A stretch of 64,000 bases of DNA from the IMG/VR virus record IMGVR_UViG_3300045988_096784; one strand, given 5' to 3'. This document shows positions 27,297-64,000 of this stretch, in pieces (positions within the stretch are counted from its first letter, which is position 1; the number at the start of each line of letters is the position of its first letter). This stretch comes from a virus. The notes under the pieces were generated by a model that saw only the letters and a program-made list of their open reading frames with translations, ran no database searches and had not been told where the DNA came from. The translations under genes were made by a program, and so were the position numbers.

Positions 27297-27320
27297 ATGA
27301 GTATAAAAGGAGATGACAGT

Positions 27321-28367
27321 ATGATAAAATTAGATTATACTATTGAGTCTCCAGAAGAACGGAAGGCGCTTGTCGAAAAAATAATCGCAGAAAATCCGAA
27401 CCTTAGTTCGAGTTATTTAGAAATATTAGCAGATTATTTAGTTCTATGTATGGAAAAGCAAGAGAAGAAAGAAAAGAATATATTAACAGATAATAGAATG
27501 GCTACTGTTAATAAAAGAGAATGTTCTTTCGAAGGGCTTGCGTCATAGATGGAAAATGGCGAGGATGGCATTTATGGTTTAATGTCAGAAAATAAAAATG
27601 TTATATTTTAGCCAAAGATTTCTATTACACAGAAAGATTTAGATACTATACCATGTTTAAAATAGTTGAGAGAAACCATTAATGTCTGGGAGGGCGCTTT
27701 AAAACGCGCTGCTGGGACAAAATAGGCATATATGATGAAAAAAGCATTAATAGAGATGCGAAAAGATTAGTATATCATTAAGCAAGCATATTAGAAACCT
27801 ATTATACCATGTAAATTAACGAGATCCGTAAGAACTCATATTCCTCTTGATGATTAGAGTTATCTTAATGGACAGGAGGTAGTAGTAAAGGGTATTTCGC
27901 TAATGGACGCCAATGTTGTTTCTGCTATTTTATGCAATTATTCAAAATTAAAAGAAGATAGTTATGATTAGTTTGAGGGAGATACATGGTATTTAATTCA
28001 ATCATTTGAAGAAATATGTGATAAAGCTCTTAAAGACTTTCCAATCTATTTACGAATTGTTGAACTCAAAATTGATAAAAAGTAGAATAACGAAATATAG
28101 GAAATATTAAAAAATGAGTTTGGTAAAACATATAGTGTTGAATATATTTCTAGCCTATGGAGAAATAAGATTCCTAAACTCATTGCGGAAGAGGCTTTAG
28201 AAGATTTTTTACGTTGGTAGTATAAACAAAAAGGATACCCAATGAAAAAATGTTCTAAGTGTGGGCAATTAAAGCCAGCCCATAATCAATTCTTTTCAAA
28301 GAATAAGACAAGCAAAGATAACTTATATAGTATCTGTAAGCGCTGTCGCAATAAGAAAAGAGGTTGA
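27321..28367 (+). CDS. hypothetical protein (about 348 aa), 12 in-frame TAG, C-terminal CxxC...CxxC zinc ribbon
   Basis: AAGGAG ribosome-binding site, ATG; one frame through 12 TAG to TGA. Confidence 0.55.
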
Positions 28368-28373
28368 TTATAA

Positions 28374-29543
28374 ATGAGCCATTATTGTAAAAAATGTGGT
28401 AAAACTATGGATGATACATAGTTTTATACATCAAAAAATTTAGAGAAGTATCCTCCAGATGGAAAGATGGATATTTGTAAAAAGTGTCTTACTATGCACG
28501 TAGATAACTGGGATCCAGAAACTTATAAATGGATTTTATAGGAGATTGACGTTCCATATATTAAAGAAGAATGGAATGGTTTATTGGAGAAATATGGAAA
28601 AGATCCAAAGAAGGTTACTGGATTAACTATTATTGGACGCTATTTATCTAAAATGAAATTAAAGCAATGGAATAAATACACTTGGGCAGATACAGAAACG
28701 CTAGAGAAAGATTCCATTGATAAAAAAGTTCTTAATATGAAAGCTCAAGGATTTACAGAAGATGAAATCCAAGAGCAGTTGTCTATTGATAGAACTCCTC
28801 CAAAACCAAAAGAATTAGAGGATGTTTAGGCCCCTGTAGGAACTCCAGAATATGAAGATCCAGAGGAAGATGATGATTTTGGTGATTAGCTAACCGAAGA
28901 AGATAAATTAGTATTACGTCTTAAATGGGGCCGCGGATATTCTTGGGAAGAAAGAGTAAGAATGGAGCAGCTTTACAATGATATGATGAGTTCTTATGAT
29001 ATTCAAGGAGCAGGCCATAAAGATACTCTTATTATGGTATGTAAAGCTAGTTTAAAAGCAAATTAGTTAATTGATGCTGGAGATATTGATGGCTTTTAGA
29101 AGATGCAAAAAGCCTATGATAGTTTAATGAAAAGCGGCAAATTTACGGCTGCTTAGAACAAAGGCGAATCCGGTGAATTTGTAGATTCAATAGGTGAATT
29201 AGTAGCCCTTTGCGAAAGAGAGGGTTTTATTCCTAGATATTATACGGAAGGACCCCAAGATAAAGTAGATAGAACTCTTTAGGATTTATAGCAATATACT
29301 CATACTCTAGTTACAGAGGAAATGAATCTTGGTAATATGATCGAAGCTTCGTTAAGAGAAATAGTTAAAGACAGAGAACGCGAGGCAAATATTGATGTTG
29401 AAGATAGCGATGAGGATGAAGATTTATTTAATTACGAGCATCCAGAATTAACAGAAGAAGATTATCAAGAGTATGAAGATATGAAAGAGTCGGAAAGAGA
29501 CAAAGATGAGGAAATGTTAAATAATATATTAAAGGAGGTTTAA
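28374..29543 (+). CDS. hypothetical protein (about 389 aa), N-terminal zinc ribbon, acidic C terminus, about 8 in-frame TAG
   Basis: Single frame to TAA at 29541-29543; last fragment matches ORF-track 29322-29543. Confidence 0.55.
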
Positions 29544-29546
29544 TAT

Positions 29547-31292
29547 ATGGCATTAAAAGATTTATTAAACCTTTCAAATAATAATAAGAAAATTGGTCTT
29601 TCCGAAGAAAGAGTTCGTGCGATAATTCCAGCAGCAAGATAGTATATAGCTTTTTGGAGAGAATATCCAGATATGTTTATTGACTTTTTGTAGACCGGCG
29701 GAGACGAGACAAGAAAAAAAGAAATTAATTTTTATTTTTATTAGAGAGTTTTCTTGCGGGCGGCCATGAGATATAAGTATGTATACATGGTATTTCCCCG
29801 TGCCTATTCTAAGTCATTCTTATCAGTAATGGTGCTTATGTGTAGATGTATATTATATCCTGGATGTAAGCTATTTATTACTTCTGGTGGAAAAGAACAG
29901 GCAGCAGGTATTGCAAAAGAAAAAGTCTAGGAAATTTGTAATGCGATTCCCGCACTTTAGAGAGAGATTGATTGGCGAAGAGGTAAGACTTAGGAAGGAA
30001 AAGATTATTGTAAGTATATCTTCAAAAATGGATCTTATTTTGACAACGTCGCGGCTAGAGAATCTTCTCGTGGTAAGCGTAGACATGGAGGATTAATTGA
30101 GGAGTGCGTTGGTGTAGATGGAGATATTTTAAATGAAGTTTTAATCCCTCTAATGAACGTTGATAGAAGATGTTTAGACGGATCTGTTCATGAAGAAGAA
30201 ACACTTAATAAATCTTAGATTTATGTAACTACTGCGGGGTGGAAAAACACATTCCCATATAATAAGTTGATTACTTTGCTAGTGCGCATGATACTAGAAC
30301 CCGAAAAGAGTATTGTAATGGGCGGAACATGGAGAATTCCTGTGCTAGTGGGATTGCAATCCCGCAACTTTGTATAGGAGTTAAAACAAGATGGTACATT
30401 TAATGAAGCATCATTTGATAGAGAGTATGAATCTAAATGGAGTGGCACCGTAGAAGATGCCTTCTTTAATGGTGATGCTTTTGATAGAAGTAGAAAATTG
30501 CTTTAGCCTGAATATGAATCTTCTGGGCGCTCTTCTGCTCAAGCATATTATGTTCTTTCTGTTGATGTAGGAAGAAAGAAATGTCAATCTGTTGTATGTG
30601 TATTTAAAGTAACCCCTCAGTCTCAAGGACCAGCGATTAAGTCTCTTGTTAATATATATACTATGGATGATGAACATTTTGAAGATTAGGCAATTAAGCT
30701 AAAAAGATTATATTATGATTATAAAGCTAAAATTATTGTTATTGACGGTAATGGACTTGGTGCTGGATTGATGGATTATATGGTTAAACCACAAATAGTG
30801 CCAGATACCAATGAAGTTTTTCCTGATTTTGGTGTAGCTAATGATGAAGATGGAGAATATAAACGATTTAGAACAGATAATACAGAATATGATGCTATTT
30901 ATGAAATTAAGGCAAATGCGCCAATTAATACCGAAGCCCATAGCAATGTTTAGACATAGTTGCGGGCTGGAAAGTTAAGATTTTTAATCGACGAAAAAGT
31001 TGCTAGAAATAAATTACTTGGTACCAAGAAAGGTCAAGCCATGAAACCAGAAGAGCGGGCAGAATATTTAAAACCATTCACTTTAACTTCTATATTAAGA
31101 GAAGAAATGCTAAATTTGCGAGAAGAAAATGAGGGTGTAAATATTATTTTAAAACAGGCAAATAAGTCTGTGCCCAAAGATAAATTCTCTGCGCTTGAAT
31201 ATGGATTATATTATATTAAATAGGAAGAAGATAGTAAACGCAAGCGTAAAAGTAGAAGATTTTCAGATTTTATGTTTATGAGTGAGGTGTAA
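29547..31292 (+). CDS. terL: terminase large subunit, about 12 in-frame TAG
   Basis: AAAGGAGG ribosome-binding site; ATPase motifs FPRAYSKSF (Walker A-like) and ESSRGKRRHGGLIEEC (Arg finger/Walker B). C-terminal nuclease region VIDGNGLGAGLMDYM; continuous frame to TAA. Confidence 0.75.
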
Positions 31293-31669: not shown

Positions 31670-33295
31670 TTGTTAAAACGTCGATAGGAAGAAATAAGAG
31701 CTAAAGGTTTTGATCTATTAGATCGAGGTATTATTACTCGTTATCAATAGGAAGAAGATTTTTTGAATTATGATACTGTTGATTATGCAAAAATGCGAGT
31801 TGGATTACGGTCTGTGGATGATGCGCTTATTAATCTAGGTACATATAAAAAGATAAATAGAAATTATGGAGATAAAAAGTTTGTATTAAATGCTATTTAT
31901 AAACATGATTACAAGACTTTAAGAGAGATTTCTAATTACTTTTATGAAAGTAGCGGTATTTATTATAGATTATGTAAATATTTAGCCTTCTTATATAGAT
32001 TTGATTGGTATATTACTCCATACACAGTAGATGCGTAGAAAGATAAAGATAAGTTATTAAAAGATTTTTCAAAGGTCTTGCTTTACCTTGATAAATCTAG
32101 TGTGAAGAGAATGCTTGGAAATATATCATTAGATATTATTAAAGAAGGAGCTTATTATGGTGTAATTGTTGATTTTGGAGATAGATTTGCAATTTAGAAA
32201 TTACCAGCTTCATATTGCAGAAGTAGATATTTCTAGGGCCCTAATCCAATAGTAGAATTAAATCTTTAGTTTTTTGACACTTATTTTGCCAATCCGCAAT
32301 ATAAAATCTAGATATTAAAGATTTTTCCACAGGATATTCAAAAGGCATATATTCTTTATAAACAGGGAAAATTAAAAGGGGATTATCCAGGTGATACTAC
32401 TGTATGGTATCCACTAGATCCTAGTATTTCTGTAAAGTTTAGTCTAAATGATAATGAATTTCCTTTTCTAGCTGGGGTTATTCCTTCTATTATTGATTTG
32501 GATCAAGCGCAAGAATTAGATCGTCAAAAGACAATGCAACAATTATTAAAAATTATTATTTAGAAGTTGCCTCTTGATAAAAATGGAGATTTGATTTTTG
32601 ATGTTGATGAAGCAAGGGATATTCATAATAATGCTGTAACTATGTTAAAACGAGCTATTGGTGTAGATGTATTAACAACTTTTGCAGATATTGAAAAAAT
32701 TGATACAAAAGATAATAATTCTAATACAACGACAGACGATTTAGAAAAAGTTGAACGTACAGTTTATAATAACTCAGGTGTAACTCATAATTTGTTTAAT
32801 GCAGATGGCAATATTGCAGTTACAAATTCTATTTTGACAGATGAATCTAGCGTAAGAGATATTCCTCTCATGTTTACAGATTTATTAAATCGAGTAGTAG
32901 AGAAATTTAATCGCAAAAATCATTATGAGTTTAGAGCGGAAATGTTAGAAACTACCTAGTTTAATTATAAAGAGTTATCTAAATTATATAAAGAGCACGC
33001 TCAACTGGGTTATTCTAAGATGTTGCCACAGATTGCTTTAGGTCACTCTCAATCGAGCATATTAGCTACATTAACATTTGAGAACGAAGTATTGAATTTG
33101 GCAGAAATTATGATTCCACCTATGAGTTCTAATACCAGAAGCGGAAAAGATTTGGGTAATAATAATTAGTCATCTAAAACTAATTCTTAGAATAAGTAGA
33201 CAAGTTCAACTAATACTAATGGAGCCGGCAGGCCCAAAAAAGAAGATGGCGAAAAGTCAGATAAGACAATAGCTAATCAAGAAAGTTCGTCATAA
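31670..33295 (+). CDS. portal protein, about 12 in-frame TAG
   Basis: TTG start 7 nt after GGAGGTG; about 541 codons; position after terL; fragments 31763-32038 and 32567-32959 in one frame. Confidence 0.65.
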
Positions 33296-33309: not shown

Positions 33310-34569
33310 TTGCATATTAGTGTTCCCATTTTAAATACGATGGAATATATTTAGAACACTTAGATTTCTCCTCTAGTTAGTAAAGGTGTCTGCAAAGTTT
33401 GCTATGTTGGGTAGCAACCTAACCGCAACCATACTGTAATTACCAAAGAAGTGGCCGCGGAAATGGGACGTAAACTACCAGGAAGTCCTATTGTTGGATA
33501 TTTTAATCATGAAATAAATGATTTTGAAGGCCACAACAGAGAAATTATTGTTCGAGATGGTAAGTTTGCTATTGTTGATACCACAAGACCATATGGATTT
33601 GTTCCTACAAATGCAAATGTATGGTTTTAGAAGTTCAATGATGAAGGCGTAGAAAGAGAATATCTTGTGACAGATGTATACATTTGGACTAGCGTTTATC
33701 CAGAATCTAAAAGAATCCTGGAGAATGGCAATAACCATTCTATGGAATTGAATGAAGAAAATCAATCAGGATTTTGGACAAAAGATGATAAAACAAATGA
33801 AAGAATCTTTATCTACAATGAGGCATTGATTGAGAAATTATGTGTTCTCGGAGAAAATGTTGAGCCTTGTTTCGAGGGAGCTCAATTTAGTTCTCAATTT
33901 TCTTTAGAGAATAATCAAGAGTTTTAGAAACTTAAAACTATGATGTATTCTATGATGGATCAATTAAAAGAAACTTTAAATAAAGGAGGCTCTCAAGAAC
34001 CTATGGAGAATGAGAAGAAAGTACCTACTGATTTCGAGAAAAATACTCCAAATCCCGAAGAGGATAAGAAGAAAAAGACTTCTGAAAATCCTGCTCCAGC
34101 CCCAGAGGGAGAAAAAGAAAAGAAAAAGGATACTCCTCAAGGTAAGAAGTATAATCTTGAAGAAGTAACAGAATATACAGAGTTACTTACAAAGTTTACC
34201 GATTTAGAGACTAAATATTCTGCTCTTGAGCAAGAAAAAACTAATCTAGATAATGAAGTTACAGCACTAAGAGAATTTAAACTTAATGCTGAACGTCAAA
34301 GTAAACAACAAATGATTGATAGTTTCTATATGTTAAGTGATGAGGATAAGAAAGATGTCGCTGAGCATATTGATACTTATTCTTTAGATGATATTGAAGC
34401 TAAATTATCTATTCTTTGTGTTAGAAATAAAGTAAATTTCAATCTTGAAGAAAAGCATAAAGAAGAAGATAATACCCCAAAGGGACTTTTTAATTTAAAT
34501 AATCCAGAAACTGACAACGTTCCTGATTGGGTAAAAGCAATTCGTGAAACTGCTAAAAGCAGTATTTAA
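33310..34569 (+). CDS. putative prohead protease/scaffold fusion (coiled-coil C-terminal half), 6 in-frame TAG
   Basis: TTG after AAAGGAGGG; C-terminal half is charged heptad-like (ELLTKFTDLETKYSALEQEKTNLDNEVTALREF). Confidence 0.5.
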
Positions 34570-34582: not shown

Positions 34583-35272
34583 ATGGCTAAGAGTTCTAAA
34601 AGATTAGGTAATGCCACTTTTGTCCAGTATGGATATGGTCAAGTGGAGCCAAACCATCTTTCCGCTCCAAGAAATGGTCAAGTATATGCTCAGCTTCCCG
34701 CAGCTAGCGCTATTGAGATTCTTGAGAACGGTCAATTTGTAAAGTATGATTATGCAAAAGGCGTATGCGATTTTAGTACGGAAGCTACTTCTGGCGCCTG
34801 GATGATGGTATTTAATGAAGTAAAGATTTATAGAGATCGCGAAACTGATGCTGATTTTGCTATGATTAAGGATAATTATAATGCTCGTGTATATAGTCCA
34901 ATTGGACAAACAGTTTCTACACTTGCTACAATAAGTGATTATACCGGAGAAGCTGTACGCGAAGGTAGTGATGTAGCATATAAGAAAAATATGGAGACAT
35001 TTACTTATCCTGCATTGATGCCAGAAGGAACTAAAATGGTACCTCGCGTAATTAAGATTAGTATTGGTGATATTTGGACTACTAATACCATTAAAGCTAA
35101 TGCCGGAGAGCTTGCAGTAGGCGATCGTCTAAAGATTGATACTGATGGATATTTAACTAAAGATACTGAAACTTCTGCTAAAGGTGGAGATTTAGATCCT
35201 ATCTTTGCAGTAGTAAAAGTGTATACTATGCCAGATCTTCAACCTGGTGTAAAAGTACAGCGTGTAGGTTAA
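34583..35272 (+). CDS. capsid-associated structural protein (229 aa), no TAG
   Basis: AAGGAGG ribosome-binding site; codon usage of a highly expressed gene; between scaffold and major capsid protein. Confidence 0.6.
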   Translation: MAKSSKRLGNATFVQYGYGQVEPNHLSAPRNGQVYAQLPAASAIEILENGQFVKYDYAKGVCDFSTEATSGAWMMVFNEVKIYRDRETDADFAMIKDNYNARVYSPIGQTVSTLATISDYTGEAVREGSDVAYKKNMETFTYPALMPEGTKMVPRVIKISIGDIWTTNTIKANAGELAVGDRLKIDTDGYLTKDTETSAKGGDLDPIFAVVKVYTMPDLQPGVKVQRVG

Positions 35273-35291
35273 TTGGAAGGAGTGAAGAAGA

Positions 35292-36344
35292 ATGTTAGAT
35301 AAAGCTAATTTACTTAGTTTAATGAAAACTGTCGCTAATGCAAATCCTTCTGGTACCTATAGCTATCAAGGAGAGTCTTTTAGCTATGACGCTTTAAATA
35401 CTACTTTGCGTAATGAGCTAAATGAATTTGTTGGCACAGATGAACTTTATAGAGAAAATAAAAATACTCTATTCTCTTTAATTGAGCAGACTATGGATGA
35501 AGTTGTTCCTAATCGTTTACTCAATTCTTATGGCAATTTTGCTGAGATTAGAACTTTCGCACAAGGCGACAAGCCTGTATTTACTCGTAGAACTGGACTT
35601 ACTCGCGCTAAGCAATTCATTACTCGTGTGGGGCTTGCTGGTGTGTATGAGACCTTTAAGCTTGGTTCTGAGAGCTTCGAAGTTGGAACAAGCGCCATTG
35701 GTGGAGCTGCTCGTATCGGATTTGAGGAGTTCCTTGATGGAAGAGTAAACTTTGCAGAACTTACTCAAATTGTAACAGAGGGTATGCAAGAGCTTATTTA
35801 TAGAGAGATTGCTCAAGCTCTTATGGGTTCTATCAATCAGCTTCCCGCAGCAAACCGTTGTGCTGTTGCTGGTTTTGACGAATCAACTATGGATTATCTT
35901 GTAAATACTGCTACTGCTTATGGTCAACCAACTATTTATTGCACTCGTGAGTTTGCAGTAAAAATGATTCCAGACAATGATGCTTGGATTTCTGACAATA
36001 TGAGAGATCAGTATTGGGGAACTGGTTATCTTGCAAATTACAAGGGAACTAGAGTGGTAATTCTACCTCAAACTCTTGAGGATGAGACTAACTCCAAAAA
36101 GATGATTGATCCAGGTTATGCTTGGATTATTCCTGGTGGAGCTGAGAGCCGTCCTGTAAAAGTTGCTTTTGAAGGTACTACCCACGTGCGCGAACGCGAT
36201 GATAATGACGACTGGTCTCGTGATATTCAGGTTTACCGTAAGGTTGGTGTCGGTGTAATGATGGCGAATAACATCTTTTCTTATGTTGATACTGAACTTC
36301 AAGGCGAGCTTGATAATACTAACCCAAATCCAAATAATGGTTAA
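35292..36344 (+). CDS. major capsid protein (350 aa), no TAG
   Basis: Size, position, biased codon usage, followed by strong terminator. Confidence 0.65.
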   Translation: MLDKANLLSLMKTVANANPSGTYSYQGESFSYDALNTTLRNELNEFVGTDELYRENKNTLFSLIEQTMDEVVPNRLLNSYGNFAEIRTFAQGDKPVFTRRTGLTRAKQFITRVGLAGVYETFKLGSESFEVGTSAIGGAARIGFEEFLDGRVNFAELTQIVTEGMQELIYREIAQALMGSINQLPAANRCAVAGFDESTMDYLVNTATAYGQPTIYCTREFAVKMIPDNDAWISDNMRDQYWGTGYLANYKGTRVVILPQTLEDETNSKKMIDPGYAWIIPGGAESRPVKVAFEGTTHVRERDDNDDWSRDIQVYRKVGVGVMMANNIFSYVDTELQGELDNTNPNPNNG

Positions 36345-36350
36345 TTGACA

Positions 36351-36380
36351 GGGGATAGGGAAATATCCCTATCCCCTTTT
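36351..36380 (+). terminator. rho-independent terminator ggggataggg-aaatat-ccctatcccc plus T4
   Basis: 10-bp stem directly after the capsid gene. Confidence 0.65.
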
Positions 36381-36408
36381 ATTTATTGAGAAAAAGGAGA
36401 TAAAAATT

Positions 36409-36942
36409 ATGAAAAATAATTGCACTGTTTATAATAAGAGCGCAGGTCGTGTTGTATATAGATTGCCTGAATTGGGCGTGCGCCGTATGTTTTACCCTGG
36501 AGAACACAAGGAACTTGAAGTATCTGAACTAGAAAAGCTAGTACAAACACCTGGAGGCCGCAAATTAATTTATAATTACTTGCTTGTGGATGATAGAGAG
36601 ATTGTTGAATATCTTATTAATGGTAGGGTTGAACCAGAGTATTGGATGAAAGAAGAAGAGATTGATTCTTGGATGAATACGTGTTCTTTAGATGAATTTA
36701 AGGATGCTCTTGATTTTGCTCCAGAAGGCACCAAAGATCTGATTAAATCCCATGCTATTTCTCTTCCCTTAAATGATATGTCTAAAAGAGATGCTTTGGA
36801 AAAACAATTAGGATTTAATGTTACTAAAGCATTAGAATTAACAGCAGATGATAAAAAGAATCCTAAGGAAGAGAAACCTGTAAGAAGAGTGTCAACTACA
36901 AGTGAGGATGCTCCAAAACGCAGAGTAGCTATTTCTGATTGA
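36409..36942 (+). CDS. hypothetical structural protein (177 aa), no TAG
   Basis: ORF. Confidence 0.55.
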   Translation: MKNNCTVYNKSAGRVVYRLPELGVRRMFYPGEHKELEVSELEKLVQTPGGRKLIYNYLLVDDREIVEYLINGRVEPEYWMKEEEIDSWMNTCSLDEFKDALDFAPEGTKDLIKSHAISLPLNDMSKRDALEKQLGFNVTKALELTADDKKNPKEEKPVRRVSTTSEDAPKRRVAISD

Positions 36943-36961
36943 TATAAGGGAGGTTATAGCC

Positions 36962-37504
36962 ATGGATAATAAGAAATATCCAATTTAGGGCGATCCGACC
37001 CCCTTTGAAGAAATTTATGATAGATTTTTTGGTAAGATTACTGATGATATGTATATGGAATGGACATAGGAAGATACTGAAAAAGATTTGTATAACATCC
37101 TAATGGATGCACTTCCTGGTTTTGAGTTCCCTCGTTTTCCATTATACAGTTTTACCAATATAGAAAATAATGATGAAGAGACTGGAATAGCAACTATTAT
37201 TCCAGCCTTTTCTGCACATTTAACGACAGAAGAAATAAATATTCTTGCTATTCTAATGTATAATACTTGGTTACAACGCCAGGTGGCTTCAATAGAATAG
37301 ACGAGAATGAAATATTCTGGAACAGATTTTAAAATGACTTCCTAGGCCAATCATTTAGCCAAATTAATAGAGTTGAAAAAGGAAGCAGAACGTCAAAGTC
37401 ATCATATGCAGCGTCTCTACAAAAGAAGAAAACTAATTGATAATCAAGGCTCTTATAAATCAAACTGGTCAACATTAAGAGAGATGAGTGTTTTTGATGG
37501 ATAA
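36962..37504 (+). CDS. head-tail connector/adaptor candidate (180 aa), 4 in-frame TAG
   Basis: GGGAGG ribosome-binding site; continuous frame to TAA. Confidence 0.5.
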
Positions 37505-38784: not shown

Positions 38785-38799
38785 GGAGAGTGAATTGAA

Positions 38800-55400: not shown

Positions 55401-56389
55401 GAACTGTAAAAGCAACCAATGCAGAAGTTTCAGGGACTATTTACGCCTCTTCTGGTAAAATTGGAGGAACGAAAACAGGATCTAATGGTTGGACTATTGA
55501 AACCAATAGACTATATAGCGGCTCTGGCTCAACGAGAGTTGAATTAAATAGCCAATCTCCAACCAATACTTCTACTCCTACTAATAATAATGATTTTGCT
55601 ATTTGGGCAGGAAGTGCTACAGCATCAAGTGCTAAATTTTCTGTTTCTAAAGGCGGATTAATTACTGCTAAATAGGGAAATATTGGAGGTTGGATTCTTT
55701 CTTCTAATAAGTTAACTAGTGATAATTATAGAACTGGAATAGCGAGCTCAGGCACTTATCGTTTTTGGGCAGGAGCTAGTTCTAGTAGTACAGCAGATAG
55801 ACCAGTCTTCTCTGGATCCTCTTACTTTTATGTTACTAGCTCTGGAGAAATGTAGTGTAAAAATGCAACAATTAATGGTTCAATTTACGCAGATGATGGT
55901 GAGATTGGTGGCTGGACTATCAGTTCTAATAGAATTTCTGGAGGAAGAACTACACTATATTCAAATGGTAGAATTGTGTGTGATGATTTTGAATCAGATA
56001 ATGTAGATATTAGTGGAGATATTAATGCAACTACTTTGACTTGCAATAACGGTGAGATTGGTGGCTGGACTATCACTGAAAGTGATATTAGAAATGGTGT
56101 AACAAGATTATCTGATGAAGGTCTTGAAACTAATTAGGTACAGATTTATATGGGAAGGAATTGGAACACTTATCTTGGATATTTGGGGTATGTTCCAGGT
56201 AAGGATGATGATGGAGTAACTGATAATATTGGTATTGCAACTATTGGAAGAGGGTAGAGTATTATTCTTAAATCTGCCAGAAATATTGCTTTAAATACTG
56301 AAGGAGCAGGTATTTGGGTTAATGCAAATCAATTCCATATGAATGTGCCAAAATCTGGATAGGATGGTATTTATGCCCAATTTGCGTAA
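52475..56389 (+). CDS. large tail-tip/fibre protein (about 1304 aa) with repeated G-E/K-IGGW-T/I-I motifs, about 35 in-frame TAG
   Basis: AAGGAGG ribosome-binding site; fragments 53828-54193, 54362-54565, 55313-55675 in one frame; four IGGW repeats in the C-terminal third. Confidence 0.55.
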
Positions 56390-56403
56390 GGAGTTGATAG
56401 TAT

Positions 56404-57144
56404 ATGGGTTCTGTAACTTTACATTCTCCTTCTTACTCTAGTGTTGGATAGAGATATGCTTCAATAAGTTGTACTGCGGTAGGATGGGTATATCCAAGTG
56501 ATTCTGGAACGACTACTACGGGAGATAGTAAAAACGGTTCTAGAACTACTATTTCTTATAGCAATACAGTATGGAGTTGGAGCTTTAGTGATGGAGGCAG
56601 CTCTAGTTCAAAAGAACCAACTCATAATTTTACTGGTTTAACCGCGGGAAGGGCAAACACAGTTAGAGGCACATTAAGTGCTAGATGTACGAAAACCACT
56701 ACTGTAACTCGATGGTCTACTCATAGAGAAGAAGTAGGAAAAGATGAAAATGGGAATCCAATATATGAAGATGTAACAACAACTACTGGGCCAACTACGT
56801 CTAGGACAACAGTTAGTTTAGGATCTGCATCTGATAGTGTAACTGTATATACGCAACCAACTAGCTTTTCTTTTGGATGCAGTCCTGGAGATTATATAGC
56901 AGATTATGCTACAGCCAGCAAATGGAATTAGTTAGCTGACTAGGTTGGTAAATATAAAAGTTGGAGAAACTAGTCAAATCAGTATTCTTCATACAATAAT
57001 TTAAAAGTTTCTCGTGGTGATTGGATAACTGCGAGTGTTTATAATTCTATGGCATCTGCTTGCGGGACTTCAAGAGTTACCGCAGATAAAACTTTGATTA
57101 GTGCAGCTTTATTTGAAGCTTTAGCAGATGCGGTTTCGCCATAA
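56404..57144 (+). CDS. hypothetical tail protein (246 aa), Ser/Thr-rich, 4 in-frame TAG
   Basis: AAGGAG ribosome-binding site; frame to TAA. Confidence 0.45.
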
Positions 57145-57164
57145 GAGAAAAAGGAGTCTTAATT

Positions 57165-57536
57165 ATGAAAATGTTAAACAAGGATATTTTGGAAGCAGTT
57201 GAGAATTTAAATTCTACAATACAAGATTGCTCACTTCTTCCCGCGAGCGTATCATATGCAGTAATAAGAAATTTTAAAATTCTTTCTCCTATTGCTGAGG
57301 ATATTTATAACGAACGAAAAAAGATTATTGAAAGATATGGAGAAAAAGTTGATGATATAACCTATTAGATTTCAGAGGAGAAAAGGGAAGCGGCTAATCA
57401 AGAATTAAATGCTTTATTGGCGGTTAATACTAGTGTTCCATTAGCGACTTTTTCTATTGATATTTTATAGGGGTATGATATTCCTTTAAAAGTTATGAAT
57501 ACTCTATATTTTATGGTGGAGGCTGACGAGGAGTAA
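57165..57536 (+). CDS. hypothetical protein (123 aa), 2 in-frame TAG
   Basis: AAAAAGGAG ribosome-binding site; followed by 12-bp-stem terminator 57519-57551. Confidence 0.45.
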
Positions 57537-57621
57537 AACTCGTCAGCCTCTTGGCCAATTATATTTATAAAAAATATAAGATTTTTTAAATATTTTAGAT
57601 GAGAAAAAGGAGGCGTTAATT

Positions 57622-60411
57622 GTGCCAATTAGTATTTATCCGCCTACTTTGTAGAGTACATAGCCAGCATTTCTTTCTAGCGTGAACGTATATCAGATAA
57701 ATTTTACGCTATAGTCAATTACGTCTTTTAATGATATAGGTCATGTACAAGTGCGGTTAGTTCGTTAGTCTAATAATAAAAGTATTGTAAATACAGACCA
57801 ATATCCAGATGGAACTATTTATAAAGCTCCTTCTGCGATAGGGTCTTTAGGAAATCAATATTTTGTATCAATTAATAGAAGCGAATTAGCCGAATCTTGG
57901 TAGCCAGGCTATTTATACAAAGTACAAATGCGTTTTGGTATAAATCCAATGTATACTTCATTATCAGAATTTGCCACTTGGAAACAATAGCAGATAGACG
58001 CGGGAGCCTTTTCTGAATGGTCTACTGTAATGATAATCAAGGCTATAGATACACCAATTATTAAAATAGAAAACGATGAAGCTAAACGAGAAGATGTTAT
58101 ATCTACTGAAAGAATAGAGGCAACTCTTACTCCTTTGTTTATAGGAAGCTTTAATATTAGCTCTGCTAGTAATGAATTATTGGATAGATATAAATTTGAT
58201 TTGTATGAAGGAGCCTCTAAAGATCCCAATTATTTACTTGAAACATCTGGATGGTTATAGCACAATGGTTCTATTAATAATACCGATACTTATAGATTTA
58301 AAACCGTGTTAACCAATAATAAAAGCTATACAGTAGTCTACTCTATTATTACTATCAATGAATATGAAGGAGAATCAGAGCCTTATAATTTTTCAGTTAA
58401 TAGGACCTATTTGGGAGATTTAGAGGGAGTATCTATTAGAGTTGAGGATAATGATGTATATTGTCGAGAAAATGGTTGTATAAAAATATTTTGTACTGCT
58501 AAAAATGGACTTAGTGGTAGTTATGTAATAACAAGAAGTTCTGAAAAAAGTAATTATTAGATATGGGAAGATTTAAAATATCTTAAATTTTCTAATCAAG
58601 TATTAAATGATTCAGTTATTCATGTTGATTTTACTATTGAAAGTGGTATAAGATATAAATATGCCATACAATAGGAAAATTCAGCAGGGTTGCGGACTTC
58701 TTAGGTATATGATACAAGTAACCAAGGTAGAAGTGTTGATTTCCAATATAGCTATATTTATAGGGATAATATATAGTTAAAGTTATCTCTTAATTAGACA
58801 TTATCCAGCTTTAAACATACTACTTTAAGAAGTAAACAAGATACCTTAGGAAGTAAATATCCTCATTTGGTTTAGAATGGTAAGGCTTATTATGCAGAGT
58901 TTCCAATTTCTGGATTAATAAGTTTTTAGATGGATGAAGATTAGACATTTTTCTCTTTAAAAGATGATGGACTTTATTACAATAATGAATTAGTAATTCC
59001 CAAAGACAAATTTATTAAAAACAATGTAACCAGAGGAAAATGTCAAGAGAAGTAGGAAACTTATTCTGAAGTTTCTACAGATGAAAATAAATTATCTATC
59101 TCAACTAGTTTAACAAATGATAATATTTTTATTGAAAGAATATTTAGAGAAAAAGTGGAAGAATTTTTAAATGATTTTAATTATAAGCTCTTTAAATCTT
59201 CTACCGAAGGAAATATAATTATAGGCTTGCTGAATGTATCTTTGACTCCGAATAATACGGTCGGCCGCATGATTTACTCTTTTTCTGCTACTGCGTATGA
59301 AGTTTTAGAGAATACCATAGAAAATTTAAATGAAGTTAATATAATAAATATTGGTAAATTTGAAAGTTTGGCTAGCGAAGATAGAATAAATTCTTTCGGA
59401 TAGTTAAGTGGAATTTATGGTAGAAATATAGATTTATATGCAAAGATAAGAGAGCAGGAAGAAGTTAGTATAGGCGGAGGATATAAACTTAATTTAATTC
59501 AAGTTACAGATATTTAGATTGAGCAATATCCAAAAATAGATTTGACTGCACGATTACTAGAATTAGAAGCTCTTAAATCTGAAGCCGCGGGAGATGACGA
59601 GGATACTTCTGAATATGATAGACAGATTTAGGAATGTAAAGATTTGATTCTCGCTCTTGATGGTCCTGAATCCGCAACTATCGAAATTAATGTTAATGGT
59701 TCAAGAATTTTAGTTGCTCCAAATAGAGTTTATCATTTAAATGAAAATGTAAATTCTTTATCTTTGTCCGCGTCTAGCGTTCCTATTATTGTAAATTATG
59801 TTTGCTAGTTGAATTAGGTTGAGGACGTTTCTGTTGGAGTCGTTTCTGCTATTGATGCTTCTCGCATTTGGGGATAGATTTCTGGAATTTTTACTGGTAC
59901 AGATGGAGTTTTAAAATTCTATAATTACGATTATAGAAACAGTGAAACTTATCGTATATTTAGTAATGTTCCACCAAATATGGAAAAGTTTTTAGTTAAG
60001 GATAAATAGGGAGATACTATTGTTGATAATACAACCTTTAATCTATATAAAACCATTAATATTTACGAGATAATAAAAGAAGAGACATAGAAACAAGTTG
60101 AGCTTATATACAATACTCATTTTGAATTAAATGATGATGGATAGTTGACAGATGGCGAGATTTATTATACTTTTAGTGATATTGTTTTACTTGACATTGA
60201 GGCAGATGAAGGAACTACCCTTTTAATTAGTTCTAGTCCAGATGGAAGTAATCCGTCTATTATAAAGATTGGCTCAACTGGAAGGTATACTCTTAATCCA
60301 TTAGATAATATGGTTAAATATATAGCTTTAGAAAGTGCTTAGTTTTGTGTAATAAATTATAAATGTTTAACAAATCAAATGCGCATGAAGGTGGAATAGT
60401 ATTATGTTTGA
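57622..60411 (+). CDS. large baseplate/tail structural protein (about 929 aa), about 35 in-frame TAG
   Basis: GTG after AAAAAGGAGG; fragments 58030-58260, 58306-58560, 59155-59403, 60145-60342 in one frame; ends TGA. Confidence 0.5.
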
Positions 60412-62308
60412 TTATTTAAATGATATGGATTTCCTTATAGCTCTTGATAAATTAAATATTAAAACTCATTACGCAAAAATTATTTTACTTTCTTTTGATG
60501 AAAAACCTATTAGAGAAATATAGGGCAACATAACTGCTGGTAGTTTAAGTGTTAATGGATCGTCCTCTGTTCGTAGAACAATTAACCTAACTATGTTGGC
60601 TAATGAGAATAATAGCGATATTGAAAATATAGATAATGAGATTTCAATAAACAAGAAGGTTAAAGTTTTTGTTGGATATAATAATCCGTTAAAGTCTTAT
60701 GCAAGATATGGAGATATAATTTGGTTTCCTTGTGGATTATTTGTTTTATCTAACGCATCGGCAGCAAGATCCACTTCTGGATGGACAATCTCTATAAGTG
60801 GAAAAGATAAAATGTGTTTACTTGATGGAACCGCAGGAGGGACGTTTCCAGGCTCCATAACCTTTCATGAAAGTTATATATAGAAAAAAGATGGAGATAT
60901 AGAAATTGTATATCCAACTATCTTTCAAATTATATATGAAGCAGTCAACCATTGGGGCGGAGAAGCTATAACAAATATTATTATTACTGACATAGAAGAA
61001 ACTTGTAAGATGTTGGTTAAATATATAGGAGATAAACCCATATATTTTAGCAATAATTATGAAAGTATGGACTTTTCTCCAAGCGCTGATTTTCCTCATA
61101 TGATAAGTTATGGATAGGATGCTGGATATAGAGAAACTGAATTTACTTATCCGGGAGAATTAATTTTAGATGCTGGAGATACTGTAACTACTCTATTAGA
61201 TAAAATAGTTGAAGTTCTTGGAAATTTTGAGTATTTTTATGATATAGATGGTCGCTTTATCTTTTAGTAGATAAAGAATTATCTTAATACTGGAAGTCCT
61301 TTAACAGAGTTATCTCCAGAAAATTATGTAAAGAGCTATAATAATGCTAAGTTTTTATACTCTTTAACCGATCTTGATACTACTACAGCCATAACCCGCA
61401 GTCCAAAGTTTGATAATATAAAAAATGATTTTTATGTTTGGGGAAAGAGAACCACTACATCTGGAGTAGAAGTTGATATTAGGTATCATCTTGCTATTGA
61501 TACCAAACCAATAATTGACTTAGCAGGATATTATATGTGGGCTGTGAGTGATAAAGAAACGGGATTAATTATAAGATATGATTTTAATAATATATCTTCT
61601 GATTATTCAATATCAGGATATGAAGTAGAATTAGTTGGATCTCCATGCGATGAGTGGAGAGAGGAATTATATCGTAGAGCATTAAACGCACAAGTAACAA
61701 ATAGTGTATATGATAATTATTATGATTCTGAATTAATCGCCGAATGGCGCAATTTATATAATCCACTAAATGGGAAATGGGATGAATATAATCATTGGAA
61801 TCCAGATGTATTTAATAATCCAGGAAATCTAAACTATTGGCTAGATTTTATAGATACCGGTTCAGAAATTGGAAAATATTCAATAAATGAGATAGGTAGA
61901 AGGACTAAAGTAATTAATAGTTCTGATATAACTTCCGTATATAATATAGAAGCTCCTGATATTATATTTATTGAAGGATTAGACCAGGATTTGATAGCAG
62001 AATATAGAGGAATTGGTTAGAGATTTTTTGTTCTTACTTCTGAGTATTATAATTTATTTTCAATAAGCTCCACAAATGCAAGTTGTTTTGATAAAATTAG
62101 AGAAATGTTGTATTAGAATTTAAATTATAATACAACTATATCCATTACTTGTTTACCAAAATATTATATGGAACCAAATAATATTCTTTATGTTGAAGAT
62201 AAAGACAGTGGACTTAGTGGAAATTATTAGATAACCCAATTCACTTTACCTCTTTCATATAATGGAACTATGAGTATTACAGCCACGGAAGTATTAACAA
62301 GAGTATAA
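60404..62308 (+). CDS. tail/baseplate structural protein (634 aa), about 8 in-frame TAG
   Basis: GAAGGTGG ribosome-binding site; fragments 60593-60883 and 61535-62020 in one frame; ends TAA. Confidence 0.5.
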
Positions 62309-62324
62309 GGAGGAGTAGGAGATA

Positions 62325-62915
62325 ATGCCAACTGTTGGTCAAATATATTATAATGTAATAGATAACAACAGTGGTAGTTATGTTTCTAGTGGGTAGAATA
62401 TATTCAGTGATATTGTTGTCCAAGTGGGGGCCTCTCAATTTAATAAAGTTGGAGTATAGGCTCCTGCTGGGACTAAGATAGTTATGAATGAATCAAAAAC
62501 TATTATGGTTGGTAGAACTGGAATATATGAACTAGATGATGACATAGCTATTACTAATATGTATTTTATTAGACCTAGAAAGTATGAGAAAGACGAAGAA
62601 GCATCTCAGTAGGCTATTGAACAAGGAACTGCGGGAATGCAAGCCGCAGACAAAAAAAGAAGTGAAGATTTGGAGAGATTTTATAAAGAAAATCCAGATA
62701 TGCCAGATCAAGATACCGATCCAGAAGGATATAAGGCTTATTGGGACGCATATAATAATATTTAGACTGCTTATATAGAGGCTTATTAGACAGCATTAAG
62801 CTTATATAATCAGGGGGTAAATGGCATTTATGTACTACCAAATCCTGATAATGTTGATGCTCCAGAAAATTATTAGGATTTATATAATGTCATTATTGAC
62901 TTTATTTATGTATAA
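62325..62915 (+). CDS. hypothetical protein (196 aa), 6 in-frame TAG
   Basis: TAAGGAGG ribosome-binding site; frame to TAA. Confidence 0.45.
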
Positions 62916-62929
62916 GGAGGTGTCAAACT

Positions 62930-64000
62930 ATGGAGAGTTTCTATGGAGGACCTAAAGGTATAGATTTTGAAATTAAGCAAATCTTTACTAGTAAATATTA
63001 GATGGATAGAGATTTAACAAAGGGTTGGACATCTTCTATTTTCCCTGGAGATTTCGTTATTGTATCGTATGGTTTGCCAAGTGATGCAAATTATGATATT
63101 TATAAGAATGAAGATTTATAGAATTATGGTAAAAGTTATAACTCTACCCTTTGGAAAAAAGTTTTTAATGATAAAGATGGAAGTGGGTCTGCGGGCGGCC
63201 TAAGCTATGAGATGCAGGCTTCCATGACAGGAAATACACCAAGAATTAGCTTACATGATACAGAAGTTCTTGATGCCGACAAAGATCCAAATGTAGTTTG
63301 GGATAATACAGATTTAGATAGATTGTGGCTAACTTTTTAGCTACCTTAGAGTCAAAATATTCAATTAGGTGAAACAACTGTTCTAGACTGCAATAAAAAT
63401 CCTACTGCGGAATTAGATACAACGGATATAAATAATCCAAGTTTAAAATTATCTTTACCACAATCACAAGTTATTGAAACGGCACTGGTTGAATTATTAA
63501 ATGTTGGAGAGGAACCTACAGTATCCTTAGAAACGTCTGGTTCTTATTCTATAAATAGACCGGCAATTAAATTCCAATTACCTGTATCTCAATCATTATA
63601 GGAAGGAACTACAACAGTTCTTGATTCTAATGAAACACCATATTTTGAGATAAATTTTGATGATATAAATAATCCAGTTATTAATTTCTTTTTACCTCAA
63701 AGCTAGGTAATGGGAAATCCAGAGACTATTATTGTAGGTCCAGAGGAAAACCCATCAGTTTAGATAAATAATACTAATATTAATTCTCCGGTATTAAAAT
63801 TTAGTTTACCAGAATCTATTAAGTTTTATTATGGTGAACTATTAGGGGAAAGAACTGCTGGGATTTATGAAGAAACGAATGAAGCTTTTGCAGATTATAA
63901 TATTGGTGATTATTATATTAATGCACCGACCGGTTTTATTTACAAGGTAACAAAGAAGTCGGGTACAACTTGCACTTTCCAATATGTTGCTTGTATTTAG
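62930..64000 (+). CDS. tail fibre-like protein with repeated N-x-x-(S/P)-x-L-x-F-x-LP-(Q/E)-S motif, 3' end beyond window
   Basis: TAAGGAGG ribosome-binding site; repeats DINNPSLKLSLPQS, INNPVINFFLPQS, INSPVLKFSLPES; several in-frame TAG. Confidence 0.5.

What the first reader, a model, noticed from the sequence alone, without database searches (positions are those of the whole stretch)
27297..64000. TAG is translated, not a stop: genome-wide amber recoding
Across 37 kb of late genes, every long gene is a single reading frame interrupted only by TAG and terminated only by TAA or TGA. The tape measure gene alone has well over 100 in-frame TAG in one frame (43697-52423), and terminase, portal and fibre genes have 8-35 each. 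UDG has a TAG inside a conserved stretch (4843-4845), and FolD has 3 inside its N-terminal domain (26114-26875). In both, the residues flanking the TAG align with the protein family only if TAG is sense. The standard-code ORF track is therefore empty over most of 41.5-62 kb despite dense coding signal. Which amino acid is inserted cannot be read from the sequence. Gln is the usual precedent for TAG-recoded phages (established knowledge).
Basis: partly seen in the sequence, partly recalled or inferred. Interest (0 to 1): 0.9.

Follow-up and report, generated by a model that had tools for sequence, protein, structure and literature searches.

The report
Gut phage reads TAG as glutamine
This is part of a roughly 140 kb human-gut tailed phage whose late (virion) genes use the stop codon TAG as a glutamine codon, read by a phage-encoded suppressor tRNA just outside the window; the feature is real, but it is a further example of the already described 'genetic code 15' phages.

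Summary
On the + strand from 27297 to 64000, 22 tightly packed genes form single reading frames that end in TAA (17) or TGA (4). They carry 274 in-frame TAG in 11,706 codons. The tape-measure gene alone has 101 TAG and no TAA or TGA in 2,909 codons.

Homology runs straight through the TAGs in terminase, portal, SPbeta-type Yon/Yom proteins, UDG and FolD. Standard-code homologues carry Gln at TAG columns far more often than any other residue, and 9 of 14 conserved columns are Q. Strains 97-99% identical swap TAG with CAG or CAA at 13 of 22 variable TAG sites.

A 76-nt tRNA with anticodon CUA and Gln-like acceptor features lies about 16.6 kb left of the window. I found it in contigs 98-99% identical to the window.

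Sense TAG is ten times rarer in the early arm and absent from the five probably most abundant virion proteins.

Relatives (phAss-1) are already filed under NCBI's 'code 15 clade', and public gene calls for this very phage already read through TAG. Verdict: real and well supported, a new member of a known kind, of modest interest.

The parts
27297..28367 (+). First late gene, sigma-factor-like with a C-terminal zinc/HNH-like motif; 11 in-frame TAG
   Evidence: phrog_5767 'sigma factor', E 3e-38, spanning residues 39-354 across the TAGs. TAG counts.
28374..29543 (+). YonG-like protein; 9 TAG
   Evidence: phrog_3314, E 2.6e-55. PF27269 YonG_N in the 99.995% identical locus L016.
29547..31292 (+). 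Terminase large subunit; 13 TAG
   Evidence: Single-piece tblastn matches covering 93% of the protein at 49% identity to the Enterococcus phage H1 terminase. Four TAG columns are invariant Q in three standard-code phages.
31670..33295 (+). Portal protein; 12 TAG
   Evidence: phrog_2739 portal, E 3.9e-79, residues 73-540.
33340..34569 (+). YonD-like head-assembly protein; 5 TAG
   Evidence: phrog_3313; PF27290 YonD_N in L016.
34583..36942 (+). Three TAG-free head genes: 34583-35272, major capsid protein YonB-like 35292-36344, and 36409-36942
   Evidence: PF27364 YonB, phrog_4088, 0 TAG. In strain L017, codon 36009 is TAG instead of CAG.
36902..40078 (+). Four head-tail connector and virion genes (including YomW- and YomV-like); 5, 10, 3 and 5 TAG
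   Evidence: PHROG and Pfam hits; TAG counts.
40093..41484 (+). Tail tube protein (YomU_Tube); 0 TAG
   Evidence: PF27173, phrog_2729.
41544..42986 (+). 480-aa protein of unknown function; 19 TAG, the highest density, with 73% of Gln-like codons being TAG
43052..43591 (+). Small TAG-free gene ahead of the tape-measure gene (chaperone position)
   Evidence: phrog_30570; 0 TAG.
43697..52423 (+). Tape-measure protein, 2,909 codons; 101 TAG, no TAA or TGA
   Evidence: PF10145 PhageMin_Tail on the 2,851-aa gene call in L016. Homology to the Enterococcus phage H1 tail protein.
52475..64000 (+). Six distal tail, baseplate and fibre genes (the last is cut by the window end); 28, 4, 27, 8, 6 and 8 TAG
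   Evidence: phrog_1887 tail protein for 60404-62308.
4237..4950 (-). Family-1 uracil-DNA glycosylase in the early arm; one TAG at 4843-4845
   Evidence: PF03167. PDB UDG matches down to E 8.8e-48 spanning residues 3-237. The TAG aligns with Q of YPPQKD.
26090..26875 (-). FolD (methylene-THF dehydrogenase/cyclohydrolase); 4 TAG
   Evidence: PF00763 and PF02882; TAG positions.
26862..27200 (-). Small ORF next to the divergent junction; 6-7 TAG
   Evidence: called as a 110-115-aa gene in all relatives.
194..2125 (-). Inner end of the phage tRNA array: 8 tRNAs, none with a CUA anticodon. The array continues left of the window, and the suppressor tRNA lies about 16.6 kb beyond position 1.

Best explanation
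The window is a 64 kb stretch of a roughly 137-147 kb SPbeta-like siphovirus from the human gut that uses genetic code 15 (UAG = glutamine).

**Shown**
- TAG is never needed as a terminator in the window.
- TAG makes up about half of all Gln-like codons in most late genes.
- TAG sits at positions where standard-code relatives have Gln.
- The genome carries a tRNA with anticodon CUA. It lies among roughly 30 other phage tRNAs, on the early-gene (minus) strand.

**Inferred**
- The tRNA array is transcribed early from host-type sigma-70 promoters.
- The suppressor tRNA is charged with Gln by host enzymes and outcompetes release factor 1.
- Only then can the TAG-laden late genes be translated in full. 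These start with a sigma-like factor (11 TAG) and include terminase, portal, tape measure and tail.
- Recoding therefore acts as a translational gate on the late programme, as proposed for other recoded phages.
- The highest-copy virion proteins (capsid, tube and others) avoid TAG, probably because even a small termination risk per TAG is costly at high expression.
For: **Frames**
- 274 in-frame TAG and no internal TAA or TGA in 22 late genes.
- The longest ORF rises from 464 to 2,913 aa only when TAG is made sense.

**Homology across TAG**
- PHROG, Pfam, tblastn and PDB hits run through the TAGs.

**Residue identity**
- At 155 TAG-aligned cells in three standard-code phages, Q occurs 38 times against a 4.4% background.
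- A likelihood comparison favours Q over the next residue, E, by about 30 natural-log units.
- Of 14 TAG columns where the homologues agree, 9 are Q.
- The UDG TAG aligns with Q in Coxiella and E. coli UDG.
- Among strains at 97-99.4% identity, TAG exchanges with CAG at 8 sites and with CAA at 5, out of 22 variable TAG sites.
- In relatives at about 73% identity, our TAG aligns to Q in 157 of 310 cells.

**Suppressor tRNA**
- It is 76 nt, with anticodon loop CUCUAAA, a U1.U72 mismatch, G73 and an encoded CCA. It scores 59.8 bits on the Rfam tRNA model.
- It is present in four IMG/VR contigs. Two of these were compared with the window and are 98-99.4% identical to it where they overlap, and their suppressor-tRNA loci overlap window 1-800.

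**Modularity**
- 2.34 TAG per 100 codons in the late arm against 0.22 in the early arm.

**Promoters**
- Five near-identical TTGAAA-N17-TATAAT promoters sit in the tRNA region.

**Precedent**
- phAss-1 relatives (PMC10607447), Borges et al. (10.1101/2021.08.26.457843), and proteomic proof of code 15 in crAss-like phages (PMC9523058).
Against: - No protein-level data exist for this phage.
- The suppressor tRNA is outside the window. I saw it only in near-identical contigs, not on the exact source contig.
- Its overall sequence is no closer to the phage's tRNA-Gln (68%) than to its tRNA-Trp (71%). Gln charging therefore rests on the acceptor features and on the alignment data.
- Early genes such as UDG and FolD also contain TAG, so the early/late gate is not absolute.
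- The timing of tRNA expression, the competition with RF1 and the regulatory role are all inferred.
- I did not look for any release-factor or RF1-directed gene.
Confidence: 0.93

Rival explanations
1. TAG is sense but encodes another amino acid: Trp (the anticodon loop differs by one base from the phage tRNA-Trp), Glu or Lys, or pyrrolysine (ARAGORN's default label for a CUA anticodon).
For: - ARAGORN labels the tRNA 'Pyl'.
- The nearest overall tRNA in the phage is Trp(CCA) at 71%.
- K and E are the second and third commonest residues at TAG columns.
- Kienbeck et al. report about 19% Trp-type isotype predictions among phage suppressor tRNAs (PMC10879173).
Against: - No W appears at any of the 155 TAG-aligned cells.
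- Likelihood ranks Q about 30 natural-log units above E and 38 above K; W is far lower.
- Conserved columns are Q in 9 of 14 cases.
- Strain-level swaps are to CAG/CAA.
- From established knowledge, the E. coli tRNA-Trp-derived amber suppressor su+7 is itself charged mainly with Gln, so a Trp-like body does not imply Trp.
- The tRNA has an ordinary cloverleaf, not the tRNA-Pyl architecture.
Confidence: 0.03
2. There is no reassignment. Leaky read-through of UAG by near-cognate tRNA-Gln(CUG/UUG), host or phage, gives low-level full-length products.
For: The phage carries adjacent tRNA-Gln(UUG) and tRNA-Gln(CUG) genes. Near-cognate Gln read-through of UAG is known in other systems (established knowledge).
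Against: - 101 TAG in one essential gene would require near-100% decoding at each site.
- A dedicated CUA tRNA is present.
- TAG is used for about 52% of Gln-like codons in most late genes.
Confidence: 0.02
3. The interrupted frames are pseudogenes of a decaying phage, or a sequencing or assembly artefact.
For: None beyond the fragmentation of ORFs under the standard code.
Against: - Only one of the three stop codons ever interrupts frames.
- The same TAGs are conserved in at least 10 independent assemblies from different studies: 1,211 of 1,225 aligned TAG cells are unchanged.
- A small TAG-free protein of the phage (window 1632-1829, minus strand) is indexed in 920 blocks of the public collection, 269 of them with contigs of 50-200 kb.
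Confidence: 0.01
4. TAG is Gln, but the recoding is not a timing gate. It is a neutral by-product of carrying a suppressor tRNA, or a barrier against expression by competitors or the uninfected host.
For: - TAG also occurs in early-arm genes (UDG, FolD) and unevenly in the replication module of relatives: RuvC-like 9 TAG, a 584-aa protein 13, Pol III alpha 1.
- TAG exchanges with CAG/CAA freely between strains.
Against: - There is a tenfold enrichment in the late arm.
- The putative late sigma-like factor is itself TAG-rich.
- The same pattern recurs in independent recoded clades (10.1101/2021.08.26.457843).
Confidence: 0.25

Closest known systems
Phage phAss-1 and the proposed Phassvirus group (OQ749652; Babkin et al. 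2023, PMC10607447; NCBI 'Caudoviricetes code 15 clade')
   Same: - Human-gut siphovirus-type genome of about 135 kb.
- TAG recoded in terminase, portal, tape measure and fibre genes.
- Tape-measure protein of roughly 3,000 aa.
- Around 30 tRNAs, including tRNA(CUA).
- No dedicated aaRS reported in phAss-1.
- Terminase is homologous at 43.6% identity over 90% of the protein.
   Different: - It is a different genus-level lineage. There is no megablast match of 24.7 kb of late genes to any INPHARED record.
- One CUA tRNA was seen here, against two or three in Phassvirus genomes.
- Here the tRNA sits apart from the main array, behind an AAA/nSTAND3 gene.
Code-15 crAss-like and Lak phages; gemstone clades of Borges et al. 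(10.1101/2021.08.26.457843), with proteomic validation by Peters et al. (PMC9523058)
   Same: TAG read as Gln; a suppressor tRNA on the phage; recoding concentrated in structural and late genes; hosts use the standard code.
   Different: - Unrelated virion module. This one is SPbeta/Yon-Yom type with a likely Firmicutes host, whereas crAss-like and Lak phages infect Bacteroidota.
SPbeta-like and large Enterococcus, Geobacillus and Alicyclobacillus siphoviruses (Enterococcus phage H1 OP534061, EF1; Geobacillus virus E3; KKP_3916)
   Same: Collinear structural module with 22-49% protein identity from YonG through the tape-measure protein.
   Different: These phages use the standard code. Where this phage has TAG, they mostly have Gln.
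Theta (HDV-like) ribozyme-associated suppressor tRNAs of recoded gut phages (Kienbeck et al. 2024, PMC10879173)
   Same: A phage tRNA(CUA) within a code-15 genome.
   Different: No HDV-like hit near the tRNA in an Rfam scan. The tRNA has an encoded CCA and is followed 14 nt later by a ribosome-binding site and an ORF.

Membership tests
Genetic code 15 (TAG = Gln) phage | Conserved genes are interrupted only by TAG, and homology continues across the TAGs | tested here: met
Genetic code 15 (TAG = Gln) phage | TAG columns correspond to Gln in standard-code homologues | tested here: met
   Q in 38 of 155 cells against a 4.4% background; best likelihood by about 30 natural-log units; 9 of 14 conserved columns; UDG Q. 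Strain-level swaps between TAG and CAG/CAA.
Genetic code 15 (TAG = Gln) phage | Phage-encoded suppressor tRNA with anticodon CUA | tested here: met
   Not in the window. Present about 16.6 kb to the left in four IMG/VR contigs; the two compared with the window are 98-99.4% identical to it and their loci overlap it.
Genetic code 15 (TAG = Gln) phage | TAG is not used as a terminator | tested here: met
   21 complete late genes and 49 early-arm ORFs all end in TAA or TGA when TAG is read as sense. Where homology exists (UDG, FolD) it continues past the TAG.
Genetic code 15 (TAG = Gln) phage | Gln is actually inserted at UAG (peptide evidence) and the tRNA is charged with Gln | not testable with these tools
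   Only identity-element reasoning is available: U1.U72, G73, and acceptor positions 2-6 (GCGGA) shared with the phage tRNA-Gln(UUG).
Proposed Phassvirus genus (phAss-1-like) | Nucleotide-level similarity and synteny with phAss-1 (members share 80-86% nucleotide identity) | tested here: not met
   No megablast match; terminase only 43.6% identical at protein level. It belongs to the wider monophyletic group at most.
SPbeta-like structural module | Ordered YonG, YonF (terminase), YonE (portal), YonD, YonB, YomW, YomV, YomU and a tape-measure protein | tested here: met
   Pfam YonG_N, YonD_N, YonB, YomW, YomV_2nd, YomU_Tube and PhageMin_Tail on the 99.995% identical locus L016.
Pyrrolysine decoding of UAG | tRNA-Pyl architecture with pylS/pylBCD genes; TAG columns aligning with Lys | tested here: not met
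   Ordinary cloverleaf; Q is well ahead of K at TAG columns. No pyl genes were seen in the regions examined, though I did not search for them exhaustively.
Theta-ribozyme-linked tRNA-Sup | HDV-like ribozyme with its cleavage site at the tRNA 3' end | tested here: inconclusive
   No HDV-family hit at E <= 0.01 in L186, and an ORF with a ribosome-binding site follows the tRNA. Rfam may not hold a theta-specific model.

The most novel reading that the evidence does not exclude
The code switch may be embedded in a coordinated kit.

- A TAG-rich sigma-like factor would make late transcription itself depend on suppression.
- The highest-copy virion proteins are kept strictly TAG-free.
- The phage brings its own ribosome-rescue set: tmRNA, an ArfA-like peptide and a Pth2 peptidyl-tRNA hydrolase. 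This could deal with ribosomes that read through host TAG stops or drop off at phage TAGs.

Together these would be a dedicated 'recoding tolerance' module that has not been described for code-15 phages.
Probability: 0.2. Interest if true: 0.6.

Novelty: new member of a known kind. Interest (0 to 1): 0.3.

Why it matters
**Practical.** Under the standard code, more than half of this abundant gut phage's late proteome disappears. Terminase, portal, tape measure and fibres fragment into pieces, and some of those pieces have become separate 'families' in PHROGs: the terminase matches phrog_15503 at its N-terminus and phrog_24618 at its C-terminus. Correct annotation needs code 15.

**Biological.** The phage adds a well-sampled, Firmicutes-type, SPbeta-like lineage to the recoded phages. 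Hundreds of near-identical public contigs show TAG exchanging with CAG/CAA in real time.

**A usable contrast.** TAG-free abundant virion proteins sit beside TAG-rich low-copy ones. That could be used to measure the cost of suppressor decoding.

It does not change what is known about how such recoding works.

Tried and rejected
- **Megablast of 24.7 kb of late genes against INPHARED phages** found no match. Identification came from protein searches instead.
I pasted proteins with X at each TAG.
- **Suppressor tRNA inside the window:** ARAGORN and Rfam find 8 tRNAs, none with CUA. Lowering ARAGORN thresholds or allowing introns gave only noise.
- **Walking rightwards from the window** through about 50 kb in same-species contigs found no tRNA at all. 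That stretch holds fibres, a recombinase, holin-like genes, NrdDG, dUTPase, RuvC, Pol III alpha, primase and DnaB. The tRNA turned up only when walking left, past the AAA/nSTAND3 gene.
- **The odd 74-nt tRNA as UAG decoder:** I considered the tRNA with an 8-nt anticodon loop (1914-1987) and the class-I 'Leu' tRNAs. None contains a CUA anticodon, and a proper CUA tRNA exists.
- **A different amino acid in relatives:** relatives with 90-91-nt CUA tRNAs (long variable arm) might have used Ser. Their TAG columns still align mostly to Q.
- **Overall tRNA similarity** does not discriminate Gln from Trp ancestry.
- **HDV/theta ribozyme next to the suppressor tRNA:** none found.
- **Pfam** gave no hit for terminase, portal or the sigma-like gene. 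PHROGs and tblastn did.

Full report

Yes. The window is 35% G+C. With the standard stop set, stop-to-stop ORFs of at least 100 aa total 12,564 aa, and the longest is 464 aa. With TAG read as sense they total 25,190 aa, and the longest is 2,913 aa. Making TGA sense leaves the longest ORF at 464 aa. Making TAA sense lengthens many spurious frames in this AT-rich DNA, but the longest ORF is still only 569 aa.

Between 44 and 52 kb, one + frame has 0 TAA, 0 TGA and 21-28 TAG per 2 kb. The other two + frames there have 18-39 TAA and 3-57 TGA per 2 kb. If 5% or more of codons in a non-coding frame are TAA or TGA, a clean run of 2,909 codons has a probability below about 1e-60. This is my estimate from the counts.

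From 27297 to 64000 there are 22 tightly packed + strand genes. They hold 274 in-frame TAG in 11,706 codons. Seventeen end in TAA and four in TGA; the last runs off the window.

- The tape-measure gene has 101 TAG, not 'well over 100'.
- FolD has 4 TAG, not 3.
- Five late genes have no TAG at all.

**2. What the genes are, and whether homology crosses the TAGs**

I translated the genes with X at each TAG. The hits run through the TAG positions:

| Gene (window coordinates) | Match | Source |
|---|---|---|
| 27297-28367 | phrog_5767 'sigma factor', E 3e-38, residues 39-354 | |
| 28374-29543 | phrog_3314, E 2.6e-55 | |
| 31670-33295 | portal phrog_2739, E 3.9e-79, residues 73-540 | |
| Head and tail proteins | several further PHROG families | |

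The terminase matches two separate PHROG families: phrog_15503 at the N-terminus and phrog_24618 at the C-terminus. These look like families built from standard-code fragments of such phages.

By tblastn, the terminase aligns in one piece over 93% of its length at 49% identity to terminases of Enterococcus phages H1 and VRE9_4. It aligns at 48% to Geobacillus virus E3 and Alicyclobacillus phage KKP_3916, and at 43.6% to phage phAss-1.

Public gene calls on a locus 99.995% identical to the window (L016, from ena:ERZ28620530 scaffold_56, 137,070 bp) are already full length: 348, 389, 581, 500, 409 ... 2,851 aa. They carry Pfam YonG_N, YonD_N, YonB, YomW, YomV_2nd, YomU_Tube and PhageMin_Tail. 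The structural module is therefore SPbeta-like, and the gene caller used for that collection evidently already reads through TAG.

In the early arm (minus strand):
- UDG (4237-4950) matches solved family-1 UDGs over residues 3-237, with E down to 8.8e-48.
- FolD matches both Pfam domains.

**3. Which amino acid?**

Four independent lines point to Gln.

(a) I compared the window's proteins with three standard-code phage genomes: Enterococcus phage H1, Geobacillus virus E3 and Alicyclobacillus phage KKP_3916. At the 155 cells aligned to a TAG, Q occurs 38 times, K 17 and E 16. W never occurs. Q makes up 4.4% of the aligned background.

I also built substitution profiles for each of the 20 residues from the same alignments. 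The TAG profile is best explained by Q, about 30 natural-log units ahead of E and 38 ahead of K.

(b) There are 14 TAG columns where at least two standard-code homologues agree. Nine are Q, two K, two E and one I. Four of the Q columns are invariant positions in the terminase.

(c) The UDG TAG aligns with the Q of '..YPPQKD(I/V)F..' in the Coxiella and E. coli enzymes.

(d) Ten independently assembled strains are 97-99.995% identical to the window over 25.3-46.3 kb.
- They keep 1,211 of 1,225 aligned TAG cells.
- Where they differ, TAG exchanges with CAG at 8 sites and with CAA at 5, out of 22 variable sites.
- One of these is a CAG-to-TAG change inside the otherwise TAG-free capsid gene of strain L017.

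Relatives at about 73% protein identity add further support. They have Q at 157 of 310 cells aligned to our TAGs.

**4. The decoder**

The window holds 8 tRNAs (194-2125, minus strand): Glu, Ala, Asp, Leu-GAG, a class-I tRNA with anticodon UAG, Asn, a 74-nt tRNA with an 8-nt anticodon loop, and Ile-UAU. None has a CUA anticodon.

In near-identical contigs the array continues to the left, with about 19 more tRNAs and a tmRNA. There is still no CUA anticodon.

I then walked the genome in IMG/VR contigs of the same species. The roughly 50 kb to the right holds no tRNA. It carries fibres, a serine recombinase, holin-like genes, NrdD/NrdG, dUTPase, a RuvC-like gene, Pol III alpha, primase and DnaB.

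To the left, about 7.3 kb beyond the AAA/nSTAND3 gene that closes the main array, four same-species contigs carry a 76-nt tRNA with anticodon CUA (for example L186 17286-17361):

TGCGGAGTAGCGTAATGGTTTAGCGCAGGGGTCTCTAAAACCTCGGGAGTGGGTTCGAATCCCACCTCCGCTGCCA

It scores 59.8 bits on the Rfam tRNA model, with E 6.5e-11.

Two of the four contigs, 080502 and 084596, also carry the late genes. They are 97.9-99.4% identical to the window where they overlap, and the loci that hold the tRNA overlap window 1-800. That places the tRNA about 16.6 kb left of window position 1, on the early-gene strand.

Its features:
- A U1.U72 mismatch and a G73 discriminator.
- Acceptor positions 2-6 (GCGGA) identical to the phage's own tRNA-Gln(UUG).
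- An anticodon loop, CUCUAAA, one base away from both the phage tRNA-Gln(CUG) loop and the tRNA-Trp(CCA) loop.

A weak 1-72 pair together with G73 is a classical GlnRS identity feature (established knowledge). Overall similarity does not separate Gln from Trp ancestry. Even a Trp-derived CUA suppressor, E. coli su+7, is charged mainly with Gln (established knowledge). Charging with Gln is therefore inferred; the alignment data in section 3 are the stronger evidence.

No HDV-like or theta ribozyme was detected beside the tRNA. A ribosome-binding site and an ORF follow it directly.

**5. How it most likely works**

*Shown*
- The code is TAG = sense, probably Gln, with TAA and TGA as the only stops.
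- A cognate tRNA is present on the genome.
- Usage is strongly modular. Late genes carry 2.34 TAG per 100 codons, and TAG is 49% of TAG+CAA+CAG. The early arm carries 0.22 per 100, that is 14 TAG in 6,297 codons of 49 minus-strand ORFs.

*Inferred*
- The tRNA region has five near-identical host-type promoters, TTGAAA-N17-TATAAT, so the tRNAs are probably made early by host RNA polymerase.
- Once tRNA(CUA) accumulates, UAG is decoded in competition with RF1 and the late genes become translatable.
- The first late gene, annotated as sigma-like, has 11 TAG. Late transcription may itself wait for suppression.

This is the regulatory model of Borges et al. (10.1101/2021.08.26.457843). It is plausible here but untested. 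TAGs in UDG, FolD and some replication genes of relatives show that the gate is not clean.

**6. A secondary pattern**

Five late genes have no TAG in 1,403 codons:
- a head protein, 34583-35272
- the capsid protein, 35292-36344
- 36409-36942
- the tail tube, 40093-41484
- 43052-43591

About 37 TAG would be expected at the density of the other late genes (Poisson P about 6e-17). All 37 of their Gln codons are CAA or CAG, although the other late genes use TAG for 52% of Gln-like codons. A binomial estimate from the counts gives about 1e-12.

These are probably the highest-copy virion components. The simplest reading is selection against a per-codon termination or delay cost.

**7. Comparison with what is known**

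- TAG-to-Gln recoding in phages is established. It has been shown by bioinformatics and by metaproteomics for crAss-like phages (PMC9523058; 10.1101/2021.08.26.457843).
- A group of roughly 135 kb gut siphoviruses with about 3,100-aa tape-measure proteins, around 30 tRNAs and tRNA(CUA) genes was described in 2023: phAss-1 and relatives (PMC10607447). phAss-1 sits in NCBI's 'Caudoviricetes code 15 clade'.
- The present phage is a distant relative. Its terminase is 43.6% identical, and there is no nucleotide-level match in INPHARED. It is not a member of that genus.
- It is very common in public assemblies. A small TAG-free protein of the phage (window 1632-1829, minus strand) is indexed in 920 blocks of the collection, 269 of them with contigs of 50-200 kb. 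At least seven IMG/VR contigs carry its fibre gene.

**8. Verdict**

The finding is correct and strongly supported, and the amino acid can be assigned: Gln. It is a new member of a known kind, not a new phenomenon.

The parts that might repay further work are:
- the TAG-free abundant proteins;
- the TAG-rich sigma-like gene;
- the phage's own ribosome-rescue set, namely Pth2 in the window, with a tmRNA and an ArfA-like ORF just outside it.

Noticed in passing
window 34583-36942, 40093-41484, 43052-43591: Five late genes, including the major capsid and tail tube proteins, contain no TAG in 1,403 codons, where about 37 would be expected (P about 6e-17). All their Gln codons are CAA or CAG. One strain (L017) does have a TAG at capsid codon 36009.
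   Followed up: partly
window 24328-24765 (-); L005 13684-13842 and 16277-16592 (left of the window): The phage has a possible ribosome-rescue set. Pth2 peptidyl-tRNA hydrolase is in the window (PF01981, E 1e-22). A tmRNA lies in the tRNA array (Rfam 70.9 bits on the same-species locus L186 5075-5405; tag peptide DNDYFENYLAA). A 52-aa ArfA-like ORF scores 24.9 bits, just under Pfam's cut-off of 25.5. A link to stop-codon suppression is possible but untested.
   Followed up: partly
window 1914-1987 (-) and 1236-1312 (-); L186 18112-18188: Unusual tRNAs. One is 74 nt with an 8-nt anticodon loop (ACUCAAAG), G73 and no encoded CCA; ARAGORN calls it Leu-CAA. Two others carry Leu anticodons (UAG, CAA) on short class-I bodies without the long variable arm of bacterial tRNA-Leu.
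   Followed up: no
window 774-808, 1598-1632, 1854-1888, 2215-2249, 2458-2492 (minus strand): Five copies of a 35-nt near-consensus sigma-70 promoter (TTGAAAAACAATAAAAAATATTGTATAATATTTAT and variants) sit between tRNAs and small early genes. There are none on the + strand.
   Followed up: partly
L186 1588-1645 (left of the window): A twister-P1 ribozyme-like match (51.7 bits, E 4e-9, below the gathering score of 67.2) ends 6 nt upstream of tRNA-Ser(GCU) in the phage tRNA array.
   Followed up: no
L002 2640-3300; L004 11155-12667; L006 11714-12331: Strains of the same phage differ by insertions of homing-endonuclease-type genes (GIY-YIG, PDDEXK_5) between tRNA genes. The window lacks these inserts.
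   Followed up: no
L191-L197, L201, L202, L227-L231, L235: More distant relatives carry 90-91-nt CUA tRNAs. They have a Gln-like acceptor stem (U1.U72, G73) plus a long extra arm in the variable region. For the subset I tested (L191-L197, L201, L202 and partner loci from the same contigs), TAG columns still align mainly with Q in this phage (33 Q and 9 TAG out of 90).
   Followed up: partly
window 29547-31292: The single terminase gene matches two different PHROG families end to end (phrog_15503 and phrog_24618, both 'unknown function'). This suggests PHROGs contains families built from standard-code fragments of recoded phages.
   Followed up: no
window 24750-25517 (-), 17078-17902 (-), 2911-4215 (-): The early arm also encodes a microbial-type PARG-like protein (PF10021, E 3e-26) and several large proteins with no family match.
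   Followed up: no
L024 19523-20230 (about 9.5 kb right of the window): A serine recombinase (resolvase/invertase-type N-terminus) with 6 in-frame TAG lies next to the lysis region. In other recoded phages, integrases have been reported to avoid TAG.
   Followed up: no
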